Below are positions 3,097 through 53,900 of a stretch of DNA of 64,000 nucleotides, piece by piece. The DNA comes from Shigella phage MK-13. The DNA lies in the sequence record MK509462, one strand, 5' to 3'. Position 1 is the stretch's first letter. The number at the start of each line of letters is the position of its first letter. A program made the position numbers and the translations under genes. The notes beneath the pieces are model-generated. The model saw only the letters and a program-made list of their open reading frames with translations. It ran no database searches and was not told where the DNA came from.

Positions 3097-4308
3097 ATGG
3101 CCGATTTTCTGAGTCAATACACAGGTCAGCAGATTGATGCAATCCTTTCTTCTGTTGACGATAAAGTAAGCAAGAACGATGTTATCAACGATTTCGCTGT
3201 TGATGATCCGTTGTTTCCTCCTTCAGCTCATCTGACGTATGAACTGAAGCGTTCTGTGGATGACATCTACGACACGTTGGATAATAAGGTGATTCGCACC
3301 GACGGTGGGGAACAAACTATCAACGGGCGGAAGACTTTTGCCGCAGAAATCCGAGCCAATGCTGGTGTCAGTATCCCTACGGGGAAGAAACTTACCATCG
3401 CAGATGAGCCAGTTGATTCCACTGATGGCGTCAATCTGTCTATGCTGCGCAAGCACGGCGTGAGTGAAGACACTGCCGGGGTTAACTCTGGTCTGAAAAT
3501 CGAGTTGTTATCTGGCGGCTACAACAAACTCACTTTCGACGGCACAAATCTGGCCACTTACTCTGGTACTGGTGTGCCAACTACCATGTTACTGGTGAGT
3601 GGAACCGACACTGTCAAGTACGACACATCTGCGTTTGTGACTTCTATCTTCAATGATACGCGTTTCAACGCTTATCTGAAGGTTGTTGATTACGACGCCG
3701 ATATGTTGGATATCCAGTCTCAGTTCAATACTGTGAACACCACTCTGGCAGCGAAGGTCAACACATCGACTTACAACTCCAAGATGTCTAGCCTGGACAC
3801 CAGTATACTGGATCTGACGAACAACAAAGTGAACGTCAGTACGTATAACACGAAGATGGCGGCGTTGGACAGTTCCATCAGCGGCATTCAGAGTGATATC
3901 GGCACGATCAATACCACGTTGTCTGGAAAGGTCAACACATCGACCTACAACGCCAAAATGACAAGCCTGGACGCCGACATTGCTGCCCGTGTGAAGATCG
4001 GGAAGACCAACCCAAGCGGCATCACTGTCTCTGCTTCGGGGAACTCTGCGTTGCCCGACTTCGATTTGGTGAACCTTTGCCAAGTGTTGATCAGTGCACA
4101 ATGGGGTACAGGCAACGTCGTGGATACGTACCGCGTGACGATCACCCGTGACGGGACTATCAAGTCTGAGCTGTTGATTCAGAAGTCCACTTCCGGTACG
4201 GTGACATTCGCGGGTTCTGTAGTGTCTTCAAAACTTCGTTTGACGATAACAAATGCGAACACGACGACTGCGTGCTCTATTGATTATAGTCTGGTCGCTT
4301 CTTTCTAA
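3097..4308 (+). CDS. tail fibre-like protein with heptad/serial repeats
   Basis: 403 aa; N-terminus typical of phage fibre proteins (TINGRKTFA, DSTDGVNLSMLRK); internal repeats VNTSTYNSKMSSLD / VSTYNTKMAALD / VNTSTYNAKMTSLD. Confidence 0.55.
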   Translation: MADFLSQYTGQQIDAILSSVDDKVSKNDVINDFAVDDPLFPPSAHLTYELKRSVDDIYDTLDNKVIRTDGGEQTINGRKTFAAEIRANAGVSIPTGKKLTIADEPVDSTDGVNLSMLRKHGVSEDTAGVNSGLKIELLSGGYNKLTFDGTNLATYSGTGVPTTMLLVSGTDTVKYDTSAFVTSIFNDTRFNAYLKVVDYDADMLDIQSQFNTVNTTLAAKVNTSTYNSKMSSLDTSILDLTNNKVNVSTYNTKMAALDSSISGIQSDIGTINTTLSGKVNTSTYNAKMTSLDADIAARVKIGKTNPSGITVSASGNSALPDFDLVNLCQVLISAQWGTGNVVDTYRVTITRDGTIKSELLIQKSTSGTVTFAGSVVSSKLRLTITNANTTTACSIDYSLVASF

Positions 4309-49925: not shown

Positions 49926-50700
49926 TGAACCCAAAGGTGTTGAGCTGAAGGGTAAATCTGTTCGCGAAGGTCTGAAGCTGTCTCCAGACCTCCTGAAGTC
50001 CCACATTGCTGAAGTCATCTATGAAGACCGTGAAGTCGGTGGTCATCGTGTCATCACCTGCCATTTCAAGATGGACAACGGCTTTGTCGTCTTTGGTAAG
50101 AATAGCTCTACTTCCATCGACCCTGCCAACTTTGATGAAGAGTTGGGCAAGAAGCTGGCCTATGACAAGACTTTCTCCCAGTTGTGGGAACTGGAAGCCT
50201 ACCGCGCCGTTGTGGAGAAGCAGATGTTGGAGGTGGCTACCGCCGATGCGAAGATAGACATTTTCCAGTACATCTTCGAAAGGGGGAAGATAAACCAGAT
50301 GGCTGGTATGGCATTCTTGAAAGGTCATAGCCAGTCTTTCGTGTTCCATCATCCACGAGACCCAAGTCGCGGATTCGGTGCTGAATTTATTCATACCGAC
50401 AACGAACTTCACAATGACCAACACAACAGCAAAGTCCAGGCCAGAGTGGAAACATATTTGCGTTCACACATGCGGCCTGATGAACTGTATTCTGAACTCG
50501 TTGTTCGCCTGGCCAAGACTTGCACGGCGGCTTACAAGGGTGGGATCTACTTTAATGCCACCACTTGGGATAAGATGAGCGCCGAAGAGCAGAAAGGCTG
50601 CTGTGAAGACATTAGGCGGCTCTTGCTGGCTCCGGCGGATTATATCCCAACCGACCAGAAGGACGCGCTGTTCAAGGCCATCGTCGATTCCTACAAATAA
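49906..50700 (+). CDS. protein with N4 gp49 / Sf6 gp66-like N-terminal domain (tentative)
   Basis: ORF 49873..50700, ATG 49906; HRVITCHFKMDNGFVVFGKNSSTSIDPANFDEELGKKLAY...LWELEAYR resembles that family; from memory. Confidence 0.4.
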   Translation: MATINRNEPKGVELKGKSVREGLKLSPDLLKSHIAEVIYEDREVGGHRVITCHFKMDNGFVVFGKNSSTSIDPANFDEELGKKLAYDKTFSQLWELEAYRAVVEKQMLEVATADAKIDIFQYIFERGKINQMAGMAFLKGHSQSFVFHHPRDPSRGFGAEFIHTDNELHNDQHNSKVQARVETYLRSHMRPDELYSELVVRLAKTCTAAYKGGIYFNATTWDKMSAEEQKGCCEDIRRLLLAPADYIPTDQKDALFKAIVDSYK

Positions 50701-50810
50701 CTGAATTATCAAACTCCTTCAATATCAATGACGCCCAGTATATTTGCTGGGTGTTTCAATTTGTGCATCACAGTATAATACGGCTGTACAATACACCATG
50801 AGGCTACATT

Positions 50811-51665
50811 ATGTTTCGTTTGAAATTGAACGACCAAGATGTGTTCTACAAACACTTCACCTTCCCAGGTGGTGAGGAACATATCAAGATCCAAAAGTCT
50901 GGTATCCCTATCGGCCACGTCCAGAACGTGGCGATTGATGCTCACATCAAATCATCAGCCGACTTCGTTGAGCTGGCACTGCTGGTTAACGCCGTGCGCG
51001 GCCTGGGTAACGTGGACCGTCTGACGACCTTCCATGCGTATATCCCTTACTTCCCGTATGCTCGCCAGGACCGCCATTGCGACTTCGGCGAGCCTCTGTC
51101 CGTGAAGTGGGCGGCTGAGTTCATCAATAGCATGAACTTTGACCGCGTGGCGATCAAAGACCCTCACAGCCATGTTGTGTCTTCTCTTATCAACAACGTC
51201 CATGTGGTCCCGCAAGATTACATCGTGCGGCAGTATCTGGGCTGGTTCATCCGTGGGAACAACGCTGTGTTGGTAGCCCCTGACGGCGGCGCGGCTAAGA
51301 AGACCGAAGCCCTCAGCCTGTCTCTGGATGGCGTTCCTGTTGTCTACGGACACAAGAACCGTGACGCCAAGACTGGTGAGATCATTGGGGTGAGTATTAC
51401 AACCCCTGAACTGATCAAAGACCGTTATCTGGTGGTGGTCGATGATATCTGCGACGGTGGGCGCACGTTCGTTGAGTTAGGCAAAGAGCTTCAGAAGCAC
51501 AAGCCCAAACACATGACGCTCTTCGTTACCCATGGCATCTTCAGCAAAGGGCTTTCCGTGTTCGACGGGATCTACGATGCTGTGTATGCCGACACTGTCT
51601 GGTGGGAGAATATCACCGCCGACGGTCTTCCTTTCAAAACTGAAAATACAGGACGTGTAAAATGA
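50811..51665 (+). CDS. prs: ribose-phosphate pyrophosphokinase (PRPP synthetase, Prs)
   Basis: AYIPYFPYARQDRH matches Prs signature IPYFGYARQDR; PRPP-binding loop VVVDDICDGGRT matches VDDMIDTGGT. Confidence 0.75.
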   Translation: MFRLKLNDQDVFYKHFTFPGGEEHIKIQKSGIPIGHVQNVAIDAHIKSSADFVELALLVNAVRGLGNVDRLTTFHAYIPYFPYARQDRHCDFGEPLSVKWAAEFINSMNFDRVAIKDPHSHVVSSLINNVHVVPQDYIVRQYLGWFIRGNNAVLVAPDGGAAKKTEALSLSLDGVPVVYGHKNRDAKTGEIIGVSITTPELIKDRYLVVVDDICDGGRTFVELGKELQKHKPKHMTLFVTHGIFSKGLSVFDGIYDAVYADTVWWENITADGLPFKTENTGRVK

Positions 51666-53326
51666 GCATGCGCCACTTAGACCCAATCCATGCAATCGAC
51701 TTCTACAAATCAGGGCACATCTATCAGTTCCCTGAAGGCAGCGAGCTGGTGTTCTCCAACGGAACTCCGCGCTCCAACAAACTGTTCAACTCTCACCTGC
51801 CGAAGAACGGCGTGGTGGTCTGGGGCATCCAGGGTTTCATGACTTGGTTCCATGAACTGTTTGACGAAGCATTCTTCCAGCGCCCGAAGGCCAAGGTGTT
51901 GAAGAAGTATGCCCGTCGCATGAACAAAGTCCTGGGTCCAGGCCGCGTCGGCACAGAGCATATTGAAGCCCTGCATGACCTCGGCTACCTGCCTATCGAA
52001 GTCCGCGCGCTGCCTGAAGGCACCATGTGCCCGTATGGCGTTCCGGTGTATGTGATGTTCAACACCCTGCCGGAGTTCTACTGGCTGACCAACTATCTGG
52101 AGACTGTGTTCAGCTCTGAGATCTGGAAGCCGATGACGAACGCCACTATCGCTCTGCATTACAAGGCACTGATGGTGAAAGCTGCCCTCGCTACAGGCGT
52201 GTCACCGGACCATTGGTTCATCGACTACCAAGGCCACGACTTCTCCTTCCGTGGCATGAGCGGGTGGCATGACGCGGCGTCTTCCGGTTCCGGTCATCTG
52301 GTGTTCTTCAAAGGCACCGATACCAACCCTGCCCTGGACTTCGTTGAAGAGTATTATGGCGCAGACATCGACGAAGACTATGTCGTTGCTGGCTCCGTTG
52401 CGGCTACAGAACACGCCGTGATGTGTATGGGTACGAAGGATGGTGAATTCGAAACCTTCCGCCGCCTGGTGCAGGACGTGTATCCTGATGGCATCGTCAG
52501 CATCGTGTCTGATGCGTGGGATTACTGGCAGGTCATCGACGACTATCTCCCTCGCCTGAAAGATATTATCATGGCGCGTAACGGTAAAGTCGTGATCCGC
52601 CCTGACTCGGGCGACCCAGTTCATATCGTCGGCGGCTACCGCATTGAGGGGTTCAAAGACCGCGCCACGCTGAACATCAGCGGCGTGTCTAGCAGCACTG
52701 AAGTCATTCACATCGAAGAGACGAACACCTATCACCTGATCACAGGCGAAGGCACGATCAACTCTCTGATGGCAGACGACCGTAATATCATCAGCCGTTC
52801 TGAAGCAGTCGGCTCTATCCAGCGACTGTGGGAGATCTTTGGCGGTACTCAAACTGAAACTGGCCACTTCCTGTTGGACGAACACATCGGTCTGATCTAC
52901 GGTGACTCCATCACCCTGGCGCGTGAAGACCAGATCTTTAGCCGTCTGGCTGGCCGGAACTTCGCTTCCATCAACGTGGTGTTCGGTATCGGTTCCTACA
53001 CCTACCAGATGAACACCCGTGACAGTACTGGCACGGCGGTGAAAGCAACGGCTGGTAAGGTGAACGGTGAATTCCGTGAGATCTTCAAAGAGCCGAAGAC
53101 CGACAAAGGCGGGACTAAAAAGTCTGCGCGTGGTTTCCTTAAAGTCATTAAAGACTCTCAGGGTAAACTAGTGTTGGTTGACGGTATCACCTTTGATCAG
53201 GTGCAAGACGCCGACAACCAGCACCAGCTGGTGTATCGTGATGGCAAGTTCTTCAACACTCAAACTCTGGAAGATGCGCGTGTCCGCGCCGCTCCTCTGG
53301 TAGCAGAACTGGCATCACAAATCTGA
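51662..53326 (+). CDS. nadV: nicotinamide phosphoribosyltransferase (NadV / NAMPT)
   Basis: HDFSFRGMSG...GHLVFFKGTDT...GSVAATEHAV corresponds to NAMPT HDFGYRGVSS...AHLVNFKGTDT...SVPAAEHST; ATGA overlap with prs. Confidence 0.8.
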   Translation: MSMRHLDPIHAIDFYKSGHIYQFPEGSELVFSNGTPRSNKLFNSHLPKNGVVVWGIQGFMTWFHELFDEAFFQRPKAKVLKKYARRMNKVLGPGRVGTEHIEALHDLGYLPIEVRALPEGTMCPYGVPVYVMFNTLPEFYWLTNYLETVFSSEIWKPMTNATIALHYKALMVKAALATGVSPDHWFIDYQGHDFSFRGMSGWHDAASSGSGHLVFFKGTDTNPALDFVEEYYGADIDEDYVVAGSVAATEHAVMCMGTKDGEFETFRRLVQDVYPDGIVSIVSDAWDYWQVIDDYLPRLKDIIMARNGKVVIRPDSGDPVHIVGGYRIEGFKDRATLNISGVSSSTEVIHIEETNTYHLITGEGTINSLMADDRNIISRSEAVGSIQRLWEIFGGTQTETGHFLLDEHIGLIYGDSITLAREDQIFSRLAGRNFASINVVFGIGSYTYQMNTRDSTGTAVKATAGKVNGEFREIFKEPKTDKGGTKKSARGFLKVIKDSQGKLVLVDGITFDQVQDADNQHQLVYRDGKFFNTQTLEDARVRAAPLVAELASQI

Positions 53327-53333
53327 TAACCGA

Positions 53334-53355
53334 AGGGGAGGAAACTCCCCTGTTT
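53334..53355 (+). terminator. hairpin aggggag-gaaa-ctcccct + GTTTT
   Basis: Immediately after nadV stop. Confidence 0.5.
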
Positions 53356-53368
53356 TGAGGGAAACCTG

Positions 53369-53728
53369 ATGTCTGTGAAGATGAAAGGTGTCGAGTTCAA
53401 TGCGTACTACCACGATGATGAATATTGGGTGAACGGCGCTTGGCACGACGATCATTGCATCAAAGTCAATGGTGAATATCGCGAAGATGTAGACGCAGAT
53501 ATCCCCGATGACGCCGATGTGGTTATTGAATCCGGCGTGGTCTATGTTCCTGTGAATGGCGAAAGCGGGGTGGAAGAAAAAGACATCTCACTCGTCACCC
53601 ATTTCAAGAACTGGCGCAAACAGAAGAATTTCTCCTTCATTGTCGTGACGGTGGAGAAGAACAAGGTCGCCGATGTTCGCCAAGCCCTGCGGTCGATCCC
53701 TGGTGTCACCGAAGTCAAAGGTGGCTGA
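53369..53728 (+). CDS. hypothetical acidic protein
   Basis: 119-aa ORF, GAGGG RBS. Confidence 0.4.
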   Translation: MSVKMKGVEFNAYYHDDEYWVNGAWHDDHCIKVNGEYREDVDADIPDDADVVIESGVVYVPVNGESGVEEKDISLVTHFKNWRKQKNFSFIVVTVEKNKVADVRQALRSIPGVTEVKGG

Positions 53729-53729
53729 C

Positions 53730-53900
53730 ATGGCCAAACCATTTGAACGTGCGGGCGTCGACAACCTCGACCGCCGCTTTAGCCCATCGGAAACGCTGAT
53801 GAGTCAGATTGAACTCAATCGCGATTTCCTGGAACACATGCTGGTCAAGCCGGAAGGTGAGGCCGAAGACAACCCTGAAGAAGGCAATAACGATGATTGA
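53730..53900 (+). CDS. hypothetical small acidic protein
   Basis: ORF 53673..53900; ATG 53730 after AGGTGG; coupled to neighbours by overlapping stops/starts. Confidence 0.3.
   Translation: MAKPFERAGVDNLDRRFSPSETLMSQIELNRDFLEHMLVKPEGEAEDNPEEGNNDD

What the first reader, a model, noticed from the sequence alone, without database searches (positions are those of the whole stretch)
50811..53326. Phage-encoded Prs plus NadV (NAMPT) NAD+ salvage pair, candidate counter-defence module
Two translationally coupled genes (ATGA overlap) encode a PRPP synthetase (IPYFPYARQDR, VVVDDICDGGRT) and a nicotinamide phosphoribosyltransferase (HDFSFRG, FFKGTDT, SVAATEH). Together they convert nicotinamide plus ribose-5-P to NMN. 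Such phage pairs have been described as an NAD+ reconstitution route that offsets NAD+-depleting abortive-infection systems. An upstream TATAAT element (50774..50779) and a downstream terminator (53334..53355) make this a self-contained cassette.
Basis: partly seen in the sequence, partly recalled or inferred. Interest (0 to 1): 0.7.

Follow-up and report, generated by a model that had tools for sequence, protein, structure and literature searches.

The report
Known phage NAD+ rebuilding operon (NARP1)
The two genes are real and are a phage counter-defence pair, but they are almost certainly the already described NARP1 pathway (Adps plus Namat), which rebuilds NAD+ directly from ADP-ribose and nicotinamide, not a PRPP synthetase/NAMPT pair that makes NMN.

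Summary
Two overlapping + strand genes lie at 50811-51665 (284 aa, Prs-like) and 51662-53326 (554 aa, Nampt-like), and every quoted motif is present. The window comes from an Agtrevirus-like Ackermannviridae phage, 97-98% identical to Shigella phage ChubbyThor and Salmonella phage SKML-39.

The proposed chemistry (ribose-5-P plus nicotinamide to NMN) is the naive annotation that Osterman et al. disproved for this class of operon. Their supplementary tables list the SKML-39 and ChubbyThor orthologues as an Adps homologue with Namat nearby and as "Adps-associated" Namat.

My own tests agree.
- The 554-aa protein's best solved relative is SPbetaL1 Namat (E 1.7e-135, TM 0.95). It keeps the catalytic core and a Namat-type adenine-clamp motif, GSYTYQMNTRD.
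- The 284-aa protein is nearest to the validated ICP1 and Bas63 Adps. It keeps the essential Lys, has Bas63's DDICDGGRTF loop, lacks the PRPS C-terminal module, and falls below the NCBIfam Prs cut-offs.

Best explanation: plain two-gene NARP1 (ADPR + ATP to ADPR-PP; ADPR-PP + nicotinamide to NAD+), with no Macro-domain phosphatase. It is already known, so interest is low.

Minor points:
- Met replaces the usual Tyr at clamp position 7.
- Namat carries a well-folded 58-aa insertion at a family-wide hypervariable site.
- Related phages have repeatedly deleted the operon.

The parts
50730..50755 (+). Stem-loop with a U-rich tail, probably the terminator of the upstream gene. It marks the 5' boundary of the cassette.
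   Evidence: Folds at -18 kcal/mol, z = -3.84. Klebsiella phage 0507-KN2-1 has a hairpin of different sequence at the same position.
50774..50779 (+). TATAAT, a -10-like element within the invariant CAGTATAATAC. A candidate promoter whose type is unknown.
   Evidence: Sequence. Invariant in Agtrevirus, Limestonevirus, Taipeivirus and Kuttervirus. No sigma-70 -35 partner was found. GTATAATA occurs only twice in the window.
50800..50803 (+). GAGG ribosome-binding site, 7 nt before the adps start codon.
   Evidence: Read from the sequence.
50811..51665 (+). adps: ADP-ribose pyrophosphate synthetase, PRPS-like, 284 aa. Usually annotated as ribose-phosphate pyrophosphokinase.
   Evidence: ORF. Pfam, NCBIfam and PHROG results. 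BLASTP bit scores: 134 to ICP1 Adps, 128 to Bas63 Adps, 73 to E. coli Prs. Key residues are conserved. Orthologues are listed in Osterman Table S1.
51354..51356 (+). Codon for Adps Lys182. It corresponds to the essential ICP1 Lys185 and SPbetaL1 Lys162.
   Evidence: Alignment. Mutagenesis reported.
51441..51470 (+). Adps PP loop, DDICDGGRTF (aa 211-220).
   Evidence: Identical to Bas63 Adps. ICP1 has DDICDGAASF and E. coli Prs has DDMIDTGGTL.
51650..51653 (+). AGGA ribosome-binding site for namat, inside the end of adps. The adps stop and the namat start overlap as ATGA at 51662-51665.
   Evidence: Read from the sequence.
51662..53326 (+). namat: nicotinamide ADP-ribose transferase, Nampt-like, 554 aa.
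   Evidence: Best PDB sequence hit is 9W5X/9W5W, SPbetaL1 Namat, at E 1.7e-135. In the Foldseek fold search the target-normalised TM-score is 0.95. 46-50% identical to five NARP1 Namats (SPbetaL1, FADO, Bas63, ICP1 and EC6) and 28-29% to Adps-less T4-like phage Nampts. Orthologues are flagged 'Adps-associated' in Osterman Table S2.
52637..52810 (+). Codons for Namat aa 326-383, an insertion relative to SPbetaL1, FADO and ICP1 Namat. Predicted to form a small beta/alpha subdomain.
   Evidence: The HMMER alignment splits at query residues 325 and 384. Multiple alignment. AF2 pLDDT is 91-97 across the segment. The site is hypervariable across the family.
52991..53023 (+). Codons for the Namat selectivity-clamp helix motif GSYTYQMNTRD (aa 444-454).
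   Evidence: Motif definition. Alignment. Variants among 120 homologues.
53335..53357 (+). GC-rich hairpin plus UGUUUUG. A probable, fairly weak intrinsic terminator at the 3' boundary of the cassette.
   Evidence: Sequence. Folds at -15.9 kcal/mol, z = -2.1. A terminator is annotated shortly after the corresponding stop codon in LIMEstone1, though the exact correspondence was not aligned. The consensus scan did not detect it.

Best explanation
The cassette is a two-gene NAD+ reconstitution pathway 1 (NARP1) operon of an Agtrevirus-like Ackermannviridae phage.

Proposed mechanism, inferred by homology:
1. A host NADase effector (SIR2, TIR or SEFIR type) cleaves NAD+ into ADP-ribose and nicotinamide during infection.
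2. The 284-aa PRPS-like enzyme (Adps) transfers the beta,gamma-pyrophosphate of ATP to the terminal ribose of ADP-ribose. This gives ADPR-PP.
3. The 554-aa Nampt-like enzyme (Namat) replaces that pyrophosphate with nicotinamide and regenerates NAD+ directly.

No NMN intermediate and no host NMN adenylyltransferase is needed. The pathway runs only when a defence system supplies ADP-ribose.

Shown here:
- the gene structure and its conservation;
- closer relatedness to validated Adps and Namat than to canonical PRPS or Nampt;
- conserved catalytic residues, and most of the specificity residues;
- no Macro-domain phosphatase next to the operon.

Inferred, not shown: the enzyme activities and the anti-defence phenotype of this particular pair.
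For: Literature:
- NARP1 was defined on Bas63, SPbetaL1 and FADO operons with the same gene order.
- The orthologues in SKML-39 and ChubbyThor are 97-98% identical to the window in DNA. They appear in Osterman Suppl. Table 1 (Adps homologues, 'Namat within 10 genes: Yes') and in Table 2 ('Adps-associated').

Namat:
- The PDB phmmer search gives SPbetaL1 Namat at 456 bits, H. ducreyi NadV at 358 and mammalian NAMPT at 174.
- The AF2 model (pLDDT 94) matches 9W5X best, with TM 0.95.
- Identity is 46-50% to five NARP1 Namats (SPbetaL1, FADO, Bas63, ICP1 and EC6) and 28-29% to Adps-less T4-like phage Nampts.
- Across phage records the identity distribution is bimodal.
- The residues D13, Y15, F194, R197, D220, A248, H251, R313, D315, G414, D415, G444, S445, Y446, T452, R453 and D454 are all conserved.
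- The clamp motif GSYTYQMNTRD fits GSX-Phi-X-Phi-X-Phi-TRD. Nampts have GGGLLQ.. or GAQTYQR.. at this position.

Adps:
- BLASTP gives 134 bits to ICP1 Adps and 128 to Bas63 Adps, against 73 to E. coli Prs.
- It scores below the TIGR01251 cut-off (103 vs 113) and far below every Prs equivalog model.
- K182 aligns with the essential K185 of ICP1 and K162 of SPbetaL1. F18, R85, H119, D158, D211, D212 and D215 are conserved.
- The PP loop is identical to that of Bas63.
- The beta-hairpin KNRDAKTGEIIGV is of the Adps type.
- At 284 aa it lacks the PRPS C-terminal alpha11-alpha12 module, which calls a family signature.

Context: the two genes are translationally coupled, in the same order as in SPbetaL1.
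Against: - No biochemical or genetic test exists for this pair or for any Ackermannviridae orthologue that I could find.
- Two adenine-clamp positions are not aromatic. Met450 stands where SPbetaL1 has Tyr396, and Leu41 where Bas63 has Trp. ADPR-PP preference could therefore be weaker.
- The Adps family is very divergent. FADO Adps scores lower against the window protein (62 bits) than E. coli Prs does (73 bits).
- The ICP1 residue Phe92, which contacts adenine, is Cys90 here.
- NCBIfam NF006629 accepts the 554-aa protein as an ordinary (nicotinate/nicotinamide) phosphoribosyltransferase.
- H. ducreyi NadV, a true NMN-forming enzyme, is also fairly close at 358 bits.
Confidence: 0.9

Rival explanations
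1. One reading: a canonical PRPP synthetase plus NadV/NAMPT. They make PRPP from ribose-5-P and then NMN from nicotinamide, and host NadR or PncC/NadD finishes NAD+.
For: - Both proteins hit the generic families (PF13793/PF00156, TIGR01251 at E 1e-29, NF006629 above its cut-off).
- Public records annotate them this way.
- SPbetaL1 Namat can make NMN from PRPP in vitro when no ADPR-PP is present.
Against: - For homologous operons this pathway was tested and rejected. Bas63 rescue did not depend on pncC or nadR. SPbetaL1 Adps gave no product with the canonical substrate. Namat made only NAD+ when both donors were offered.
- The window Adps scores below every curated Prs cut-off.
- It lacks the PRPS C-terminal module and the KRRPRANVSQV catalytic loop.
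- The window Namat carries the Namat-type clamp motif.
Confidence: 0.04
2. A relaxed or dual-specificity variant. Because of Met450 and Leu41 in the clamp, the Ackermannviridae Namat uses both ADPR-PP and host-made PRPP to a meaningful extent. The operon would then both recycle ADPR and raise NMN/NAD+ in the absence of any defence system.
For: - Two of the adenine-stacking positions are non-aromatic here.
- Clamp double mutants of SPbetaL1 Namat lose NAD+ synthesis but keep NMN synthesis.
Against: - The main stacking residue is kept as Tyr446 (Phe392 in SPbetaL1), and Thr452, Arg453 and Asp454 are also kept.
- Single clamp substitutions changed activity only 1.3-1.7-fold.
- Met at position 7 recurs in 13 of the 120 closest homologues. 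All 120 carry the Namat-type motif frame.
- The gene remains translationally coupled to an Adps.
Confidence: 0.05
3. Auxiliary nucleotide-metabolism genes with no defence role. The pair would boost PRPP and nucleotide supply for phage DNA synthesis.
For: The operon sits among replication and nucleotide-metabolism genes: clamp loader, RegA and helicases.
Against: - The arguments against rival 1 apply here too.
- Relatives have repeatedly deleted the operon (LIMEstone1, Ag3, RPN242). That fits a conditionally useful accessory function better than a core metabolic one.
Confidence: 0.01

Closest known systems
NARP1 (Adps + Namat) of phages Bas63, SPbetaL1, FADO and ICP1 (Osterman et al. 2024; Lan et al. 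NAR 2026; Liu et al. NAR 2026)
   Same: - The gene order is the same, with adps first and namat second. The start/stop overlap is as in SPbetaL1.
- The essential Adps Lys and the acidic residues are conserved.
- The PP loop is identical to that of Bas63.
- The PRPS C-terminal module is missing.
- The Namat catalytic core and the clamp-helix motif frame are conserved.
- Namat identity is 46-50% and Adps identity 31-35% (24% to FADO). That is the same range as between the validated members themselves.
   Different: - Met replaces Tyr at clamp-helix position 7.
- In the clamp loop, Lys40 is followed by Leu, where Bas63 has Lys-Trp.
- A 58-aa insertion (aa 326-383) is absent from SPbetaL1, FADO and ICP1 Namat. 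Bas63 has a longer, unrelated insertion at the same site.
- Cys90 stands where ICP1 has Phe92.
- This pair has not been tested experimentally.
NARP2 (Nampt + Nmnat of Vibrio phage KVP40 and other T4-like phages)
   Same: It has a Nampt-fold enzyme, uses nicotinamide, and counters NAD+ depletion.
   Different: - The NARP2 Nampt prefers PRPP and is paired with an Nmnat, not with a Prs-like gene.
- Adps-less T4-like phage Nampts (Matisse, Aes508) are only 28-29% identical to the window protein. They have GGGLLQ at the clamp position.
- No Nmnat is annotated in the ChubbyThor regions that I take, from one anchor alignment and assumed collinearity, to span window positions of roughly 7,900-64,000; the first ~7.9 kb was not examined.
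Canonical bacterial Prs (E. coli Prs, class I PRPS) and NadV (Haemophilus ducreyi NadV, PDB 9KE8/9KEO)
   Same: The folds and the core phosphoribosyl-transfer residues are the same.
   Different: - Identity to E. coli Prs is only 25-27%.
- The window protein scores below the curated Prs cut-offs.
- It has no alpha11-alpha12 module and a different catalytic loop.
- HdNadV has GAQTYQRNTRD, with no aromatic residue at positions 3 and 7.
NARP1-AP (Adps - Macro-domain phosphatase Adpp - Namat, e.g. Vibrio phage Gary)
   Same: The two core enzymes are shared.
   Different: No Macro-domain protein lies within two genes on either side (Pfam, PHROGs). By inference, the window operon should not counter aRES-type defence, which produces ADPR-1''-phosphate.
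NARP3 (PnuC-like transporter + NadR-like enzyme, Bas30)
   Same: It is also a phage NAD+ restoration system directed against Sir2-HerA-type defence.
   Different: The proteins and substrates are unrelated (nicotinamide riboside import, then phosphorylation and adenylation).

Membership tests
NARP1 (Adps + Namat) | A Prs-like gene and a Nampt-like gene adjacent, on the same strand, in one operon | tested here: met
   50811-51665 and 51662-53326, with a 4-nt ATGA overlap. Bas63, SPbetaL1, FADO and ICP1 have the same order.
NARP1 (Adps + Namat) | The Prs-like protein belongs to the Adps clade, not to the prokaryotic Prs clade | tested here: met
   - The SKML-39 and ChubbyThor orthologues are in Osterman Suppl. 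Table 1 with Namat nearby.
- 134 and 128 bits to ICP1 and Bas63 Adps against 73 to E. coli Prs.
- Below the NCBIfam Prs cut-offs.
- I built no tree of my own with many canonical Prs sequences.
NARP1 (Adps + Namat) | Adps catalytic Lys on the beta-hairpin (ICP1 K185, SPbetaL1 K162) and the conserved acceptor residues | tested here: met
   K182, R85, H119, D158, D211, D212 and D215 are aligned and conserved. Only ICP1 F92 differs, as C90.
NARP1 (Adps + Namat) | Adps lacks the PRPS C-terminal alpha11-alpha12 module | tested here: met
   284 aa. The alignment ends about 20 residues before the C-terminus of E. coli Prs, as it does for the five NARP1 Adps sequences compared (Bas63, EC6, ICP1, SPbetaL1, FADO). 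The signature is described.
NARP1 (Adps + Namat) | Adps-type PP loop | tested here: met
   DDICDGGRTF, identical to Bas63. ICP1 has DDICDGAASF and E. coli Prs has DDMIDTGGTL.
NARP1 (Adps + Namat) | Namat catalytic core (SPbetaL1 F189, D215, R306, catalytic His) | tested here: met
   F194, D220, R313 and H251, plus D13, Y15, R197, A248 and D315.
NARP1 (Adps + Namat) | Namat clamp-helix motif GSX-Phi-X-Phi-X-Phi-TRD with an aromatic residue at position 3 | tested here: met
   GSYTYQMNTRD, with Tyr446 at position 3. Motif definition.
NARP1 (Adps + Namat) | Aromatic residue at clamp-helix position 7 (SPbetaL1 Tyr396) | tested here: not met
   Met450. The paper says these positions are 'most often' aromatic. 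Met occurs in 13 of the 120 closest homologues. Single substitutions at clamp positions had 1.3-1.7-fold effects.
NARP1 (Adps + Namat) | Clamp loop with Arg, Lys or Tyr at its third position, which supplies a stacking residue | tested here: inconclusive
   Lys40 is present and the loop length equals that of Bas63. The next residue is Leu41, where Bas63 has Trp, and Phe42 follows. Which residue stacks cannot be judged without coordinates.
NARP1 (Adps + Namat) | Activities: ADPR + ATP -> ADPR-PP, then ADPR-PP + nicotinamide -> NAD+; rescue from NAD+-depleting defence | not testable with these tools
   This needs enzymology and phage genetics.
Canonical PRPP synthetase (class I PRPS, TIGR01251 and equivalogs) | Score above the curated family cut-off | tested here: not met
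   TIGR01251 gives 103.3 against a cut-off of 113. The equivalog models give 47-91 bits against cut-offs of 296-536.
Canonical PRPP synthetase (class I PRPS, TIGR01251 and equivalogs) | PRPS catalytic flexible loop and C-terminal regulatory/filament module | tested here: not met
   The loop is HKNRDAKTGEIIGV, where E. coli has DKRRPRANVSQVMH. The C-terminus is truncated.
NARP2 / canonical Nampt-NadV | Nampt-type clamp-equivalent sequence, with no Adps partner and an Nmnat partner instead | tested here: not met
   - The motif is of the Namat type.
- An Adps partner is present.
- No Nmnat is annotated in the ChubbyThor DNA taken to correspond to window positions of roughly 7,900-64,000. That mapping rests on one anchor alignment plus assumed collinearity.
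- I did not scan all the window ORFs against profiles.
NARP1-AP | Macro-domain ADPR-1''-P phosphatase within two genes of the operon | tested here: not met
   The neighbours are DUF3268, Phage_gp49_66, two proteins of unknown function (119 aa and 75 aa) and a vWA protein. None has a Macro domain. The original study used HHpred-level sensitivity, which I did not reproduce.

The most novel reading that the evidence does not exclude
The Ackermannviridae version may be a functionally distinct NARP1 variant. It has a non-aromatic clamp (Met450, Leu41), and a confidently folded 58-aa subdomain is inserted at a hypervariable site of the Namat family. Either feature could change donor specificity (real dual use of PRPP and ADPR-PP) or add a regulatory or interaction surface. 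Neither possibility is addressed in the published Namat structure work.
Probability: 0.1. Interest if true: 0.4.

Novelty: already known. Interest (0 to 1): 0.12.

Why it matters
This is mainly an annotation lesson. That predicts the wrong substrates and the wrong intermediate (PRPP/NMN instead of ADPR-PP).

It also predicts the wrong dependencies. Under the naive reading rescue would need host NadR or PncC. Under NARP1 it needs neither, and the pathway works only when a defence system supplies ADP-ribose.

Ackermannviridae are being developed for phage therapy and biocontrol. Knowing that a given isolate carries an intact two-gene NARP1, a version with the extra phosphatase, or a deleted remnant predicts its sensitivity to SIR2-, TIR-, SEFIR- and RES-type defences.

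Nothing here changes what the field already knows.

Tried and rejected
- **Sigma-70 promoter:** the scan found no promoter upstream of adps. I therefore treat the TATAAT only as a conserved -10-like element. GTATAATA is not a recurring promoter word in the window, with 2 hits against 0.7 expected.
- **Terminator scan:** it missed the downstream hairpin. I checked the hairpin by folding, and the LIMEstone1 record annotates a terminator shortly after the corresponding stop codon.
- **Identity of PDB 9KE8:** a literature search found only irrelevant papers, and a tblastn search of the phage collection found nothing closer than 56%. The fold search finally identified it as Haemophilus ducreyi NadV.
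- **Adps structures:** the ICP1 Adps entries from Liu et al. 2026 did not appear among the PDB matches, so I could not compare the window Adps with them directly.
- **Nmnat reference:** I hoped the 'nucleotidyltransferase nrdC.11' of Aes508 was an Nmnat. It is an RlaP-family protein, so I had no Nmnat query for a local search. I relied on the ChubbyThor annotation instead.
- **Macro-domain phosphatase:** none was found next to the operon.
- **The insertion as a unique feature:** I considered that the Namat insertion might be peculiar to this phage. I rejected that, because about half of the 116 closest homologues that could be scored have an insertion of 45-113 aa at the same site.
- **Model coordinates:** they are not available to scripts, so I could not measure where the insertion sits relative to the active site.
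Full report
**1. Observation**

The window has two + strand ORFs, 50811..51665 (284 aa) and 51662..53326 (554 aa). They overlap in the sequence ATGA at 51662-51665.

The 284-aa protein matches Pfam PF00156 and PF13793 and PHROG 619. The 554-aa protein matches PF04095, NCBIfam NF006629 (471.7 bits, cut-off 405) and PHROG 448.

Shine-Dalgarno-like GAGG (50800-50803) and AGGA (51650-51653) precede the two start codons.

**2. Flanking signals**

TATAAT is at 50774-50779. It has no usable -35, and the sigma-70 scan reports no promoter there. However, CAGTATAATAC is invariant in Agtrevirus, Limestonevirus, Taipeivirus and Kuttervirus relatives.

The downstream hairpin (53335-53350, followed by UGUUUUG) folds at -15.9 kcal/mol, z = -2.1. 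The consensus terminator scan did not list it. The LIMEstone1 record annotates a putative factor-independent terminator shortly after the corresponding stop codon, but its offset from the stop differs from that of the window hairpin and I did not align the two regions base for base.

It lies between the upstream gene and the TATAAT. Klebsiella phage 0507-KN2-1 has a hairpin of different sequence at the same place. The description as a self-contained cassette is therefore reasonable.

**3. Source of the window**

Megablast of 50600-53500 finds 90 phage records. The best are Shigella phage ChubbyThor (97.8%) and Salmonella phage SKML-39 (97.2%). ChubbyThor is classified as Ackermannviridae, Aglimvirinae, Agtrevirus.

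Neighbouring genes encode replication and nucleotide-metabolism functions on the same strand: clamp loader, RegA and helicases upstream, and a vWA protein downstream.

**4. What the pair is**

Osterman et al. (bioRxiv 10.1101/2024.02.11.579819) began from exactly this annotation: a Prs-like gene followed by a Nampt-like gene in BASEL phages. They showed that the predicted PRPP-to-NMN chemistry is wrong.
- Infected cells accumulated ADPR-pyrophosphate.
- The purified SPbetaL1 Prs-like enzyme (Adps) pyrophosphorylated ADP-ribose but gave no product with the canonical substrate.
- The Nampt-like enzyme (Namat) joined ADPR-PP to nicotinamide to give NAD+. It made only NAD+ when PRPP and ADPR-PP were offered together.

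This pathway is NARP1. The pathway that really makes NMN, NARP2, pairs a distinct Nampt clade with an Nmnat. No phage was found that carries both pathways.

Their supplementary tables include the near-identical orthologues of the window genes.
- Table 1 (Adps homologues) lists SKML-39 JX181829_00048 and ChubbyThor OL615013_00159, with 'Namat within 10 genes' marked Yes.
- Table 2 lists JX181829_00049 and OL615013_00158, flagged 'Adps-associated'.

A 2024 review of Ackermannviridae already notes that NAMPT and RPPK genes vary in presence among Agtrevirus genomes. It suggests they may help evade NAD+-depleting defence.

**5. Independent test of the Namat assignment**

Sequence search of the PDB puts SPbetaL1 Namat first (9W5X/9W5W; E 1.7e-135, 456 bits; identity of the entries). 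Then come 9KE8/9KEO (358 bits) and mammalian NAMPT (about 174 bits).

An AlphaFold2 model built on 118 homologues is confident (mean pLDDT 94.2, pTM 0.93). Its best structural match is again Namat, with a target-normalised TM-score of 0.95 and rmsd 2.0 A. Haemophilus ducreyi NadV (9KE8) and human or mouse NAMPT follow.

In my alignment the window protein is 46-50% identical to the Namats of Bas63, EC6, SPbetaL1, FADO and ICP1. It is only 28-29% identical to the Nampts of T4-like phages that have no adjacent Adps gene (Matisse, Aes508). A tblastn search across all phage records shows the same two groups, 37-47% and then 29% or less.

Every catalytic or NMN-binding residue named for SPbetaL1 Namat is conserved. 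These are D13, Y15, F194, R197, D220, A248, H251, R313, D315, G414, D415, G444 and S445 (residue roles).

Lan et al. (PMC12774641) define the sequence signature that separates Namat from Nampt. [quoted passage not shown]
- The window has GSYTYQMNTRD.
- The validated Namats have GS[YF]TYQY.T[RC]D.
- The Adps-less phage Nampts have GGGLLQ[EM]V[TN]RD.
- HdNadV has GAQTYQRNTRD, and mammalian NAMPT has GSGGALLQKLTRD.

The window protein therefore has the Namat frame and the main stacking aromatic residue (Tyr446), but Met at position 7. In the clamp loop it has Lys40, as Bas63 does, followed by Leu where Bas63 has Trp.

Met at position 7 is a recurrent minority state: 13 of the 120 closest homologues have it, and all 120 have the Namat frame. 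Single clamp substitutions reduced SPbetaL1 Namat activity only 1.3-1.7-fold.

**6. Independent test of the Adps assignment**

The 284-aa protein fails the curated Prs thresholds. TIGR01251 gives 103.3 against 113, and the equivalog models fall several-fold short.

BLASTP bit scores are 134 to ICP1 Adps, 128 to Bas63 Adps, 125 to EC6 and 94 to SPbetaL1 Adps. E. coli Prs scores 73. FADO Adps scores only 62, which shows how divergent the family is. The best canonical PRPS in the PDB reaches E 7e-18.

Liu et al. (PMC13586617) solved ICP1 Adps and named its key residues. In the window protein F18, R85, H119, D158, K182, D211, D212, I213, C214, D215 and F220 align with ICP1 F18, R87, H121, D161, K185, D212-D216 and F221. 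Only ICP1 F92 differs, as C90.

K182 corresponds to the residue whose mutation abolishes activity in both ICP1 (K185A) and SPbetaL1 (K162A). The PP loop DDICDGGRTF is identical to that of Bas63 Adps.

The hairpin HKNRDAKTGEIIGV follows the pattern K-x-R-[DN]-x-x-T-G-[ED]-I. I see that pattern in all Adps sequences in the alignment. E. coli Prs has DKRRPRANVSQVMH in its place.

The protein also ends about 20 residues short of E. coli Prs. It therefore lacks the alpha11-alpha12 module, whose loss Liu et al. call a family signature.

**7. Mechanism proposed**

By homology, when a host NADase effector cleaves NAD+, Adps uses ATP to convert the released ADP-ribose to ADPR-PP. Namat then swaps the pyrophosphate for nicotinamide, which gives NAD+.

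The gene anatomy, the family placement and the conserved residues are shown here. The activities and the anti-defence phenotype are inferred.

No Macro-domain gene lies within two genes on either side of the operon. The operon is therefore plain NARP1, not NARP1-AP. By inference it should not rescue the phage from aRES systems, which produce ADPR-1''-phosphate.

**8. Rivals**

The canonical Prs + NadV reading keeps a small probability, only because this pair has never been assayed. A dual-specificity reading rests on Met450 and Leu41. A purely metabolic role is unlikely, given that relatives have repeatedly lost the operon.

**9. Other observations**

(a) Namat residues 326-383 are an insertion relative to SPbetaL1, FADO and ICP1 Namat. 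The model predicts a folded small beta/alpha unit there (pLDDT 91-97). Bas63 and EC6 carry a longer, unrelated insertion at the same site.

Among 116 close homologues that could be scored, the stretch from RPDSG to FGG is about 29 aa in 54 and 45-113 aa in the rest, with little sequence similarity between lineages. The Namat structure paper does not mention this.

(b) Related phages have deleted the operon at least three separate times.
- LIMEstone1 keeps a 110-aa in-frame fusion of Adps residues 1-7 to Namat residues ~451-554.
- Shigella phage Ag3 encodes a 547-aa fusion of Adps 1-222 to Namat 227-554. The junction falls at a shared TTCGTTGA. This protein explains the odd chimeric profile phrog_12872.
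- E. coli phage RPN242 keeps only a 78-aa remnant.

(c) Fibrella aestuarina carries a chromosomal cluster of NrtR, an Adps-like gene, a Namat-like gene, DUF4291 and an ADP-ribosylglycohydrolase. This fits the bacterial NARP1 homologues discussed in the literature.

**10. Verdict**

The counter-defence idea is correct in outline. The cassette belongs to NARP1, and its orthologues were already catalogued as such. It is already known and of low interest. The only mildly new points are the clamp substitutions, the insertion hot-spot and the pattern of operon decay.

Noticed in passing
L011 3294-3626 (Dickeya phage LIMEstone1); P0009 (Shigella phage Ag3); L015 2594-2827 (E. coli phage RPN242); window junction sites 51466-51473 / 52338-52345 and about 50827-50831 / 53009-53013: Relatives have deleted the Adps-Namat operon at least three separate times.
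- LIMEstone1 'nadV' is a 110-aa in-frame fusion of Adps aa 1-7 to Namat aa ~451-554.
- Ag3 encodes a 547-aa fusion of Adps 1-222 to Namat 227-554, joined at a shared TTCGTTGA.
- RPN242 keeps a 78-aa remnant.
The Ag3 chimera explains the PHROG profile phrog_12872, which matches half of each window protein.
   Followed up: yes
window 52637-52810 (Namat aa 326-383): This is a 58-aa insertion relative to SPbetaL1, FADO and ICP1 Namat, predicted as a well-folded small beta/alpha subdomain (pLDDT 91-97). The site between RPDSGDP and the LWxxFGG helix is a hypervariable insertion hot-spot in the Namat family. It is about 29 aa in 54 of 116 homologues and 45-113 aa, with unrelated sequences, in the rest. 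The Namat structure paper does not mention it.
   Followed up: partly
window 50730-50755: A strong hairpin (-18 kcal/mol, z = -3.8) with a U-rich tail lies between the upstream gene and the conserved TATAAT. A Klebsiella phage has a hairpin of different sequence in the same position, which suggests a conserved terminator that insulates the operon.
   Followed up: partly
window 53009-53011 (Namat Met450) and 51782-51784 (Leu41): Two positions that supply adenine-stacking aromatic or Arg residues in SPbetaL1 or Bas63 Namat are Met and Leu here. Met at clamp position 7 recurs in 13 of the 120 closest homologues.
   Followed up: partly
PDB 9KE8/9KEO (Haemophilus ducreyi NadV): This NMN-forming bacterial NadV is much closer to the window protein (358 bits) and to SPbetaL1 Namat (55% identity over 307 aa) than mammalian NAMPT is. 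Its clamp-equivalent motif is GAQTYQRNTRD. Overall similarity alone therefore does not separate Namat from every Nampt.
   Followed up: partly
L010 3361-8174 (Fibrella aestuarina chromosome): The cluster runs NrtR-like regulator, Adps-like (42% identical to the window Adps, PP loop DDICDGGGTF), Namat-like (GSYTYEYVTRD), DUF4291, ADP-ribosylglycohydrolase. It looks like a chromosomal NARP1-like ADP-ribose recycling operon.
   Followed up: partly
L001 about 3950-4040 (Vibrio phage ICP1 isolate 2017_Dha_V, MW794167.1): In this isolate the Namat gene has an in-frame stop after about codon 28, and the record annotates only a 439-aa downstream ORF. I did not check whether this is a real nonsense mutation or a sequencing error.
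   Followed up: no
OR844942.1 'Enterococcus phage Efm 3-10' (hit H26): A record labelled as an Enterococcus faecium phage carries this enterobacterial Kuttervirus-like DNA at 91% identity over 93% of the query. The record is probably mislabelled or contaminated.
   Followed up: no
window 53369-53728 and 53673-53900: Two small conserved genes of unknown function (PHROG 4254 and 8656, no Pfam match) lie directly downstream of the operon, before the vWA gene. I found no link to NAD metabolism.
   Followed up: partly
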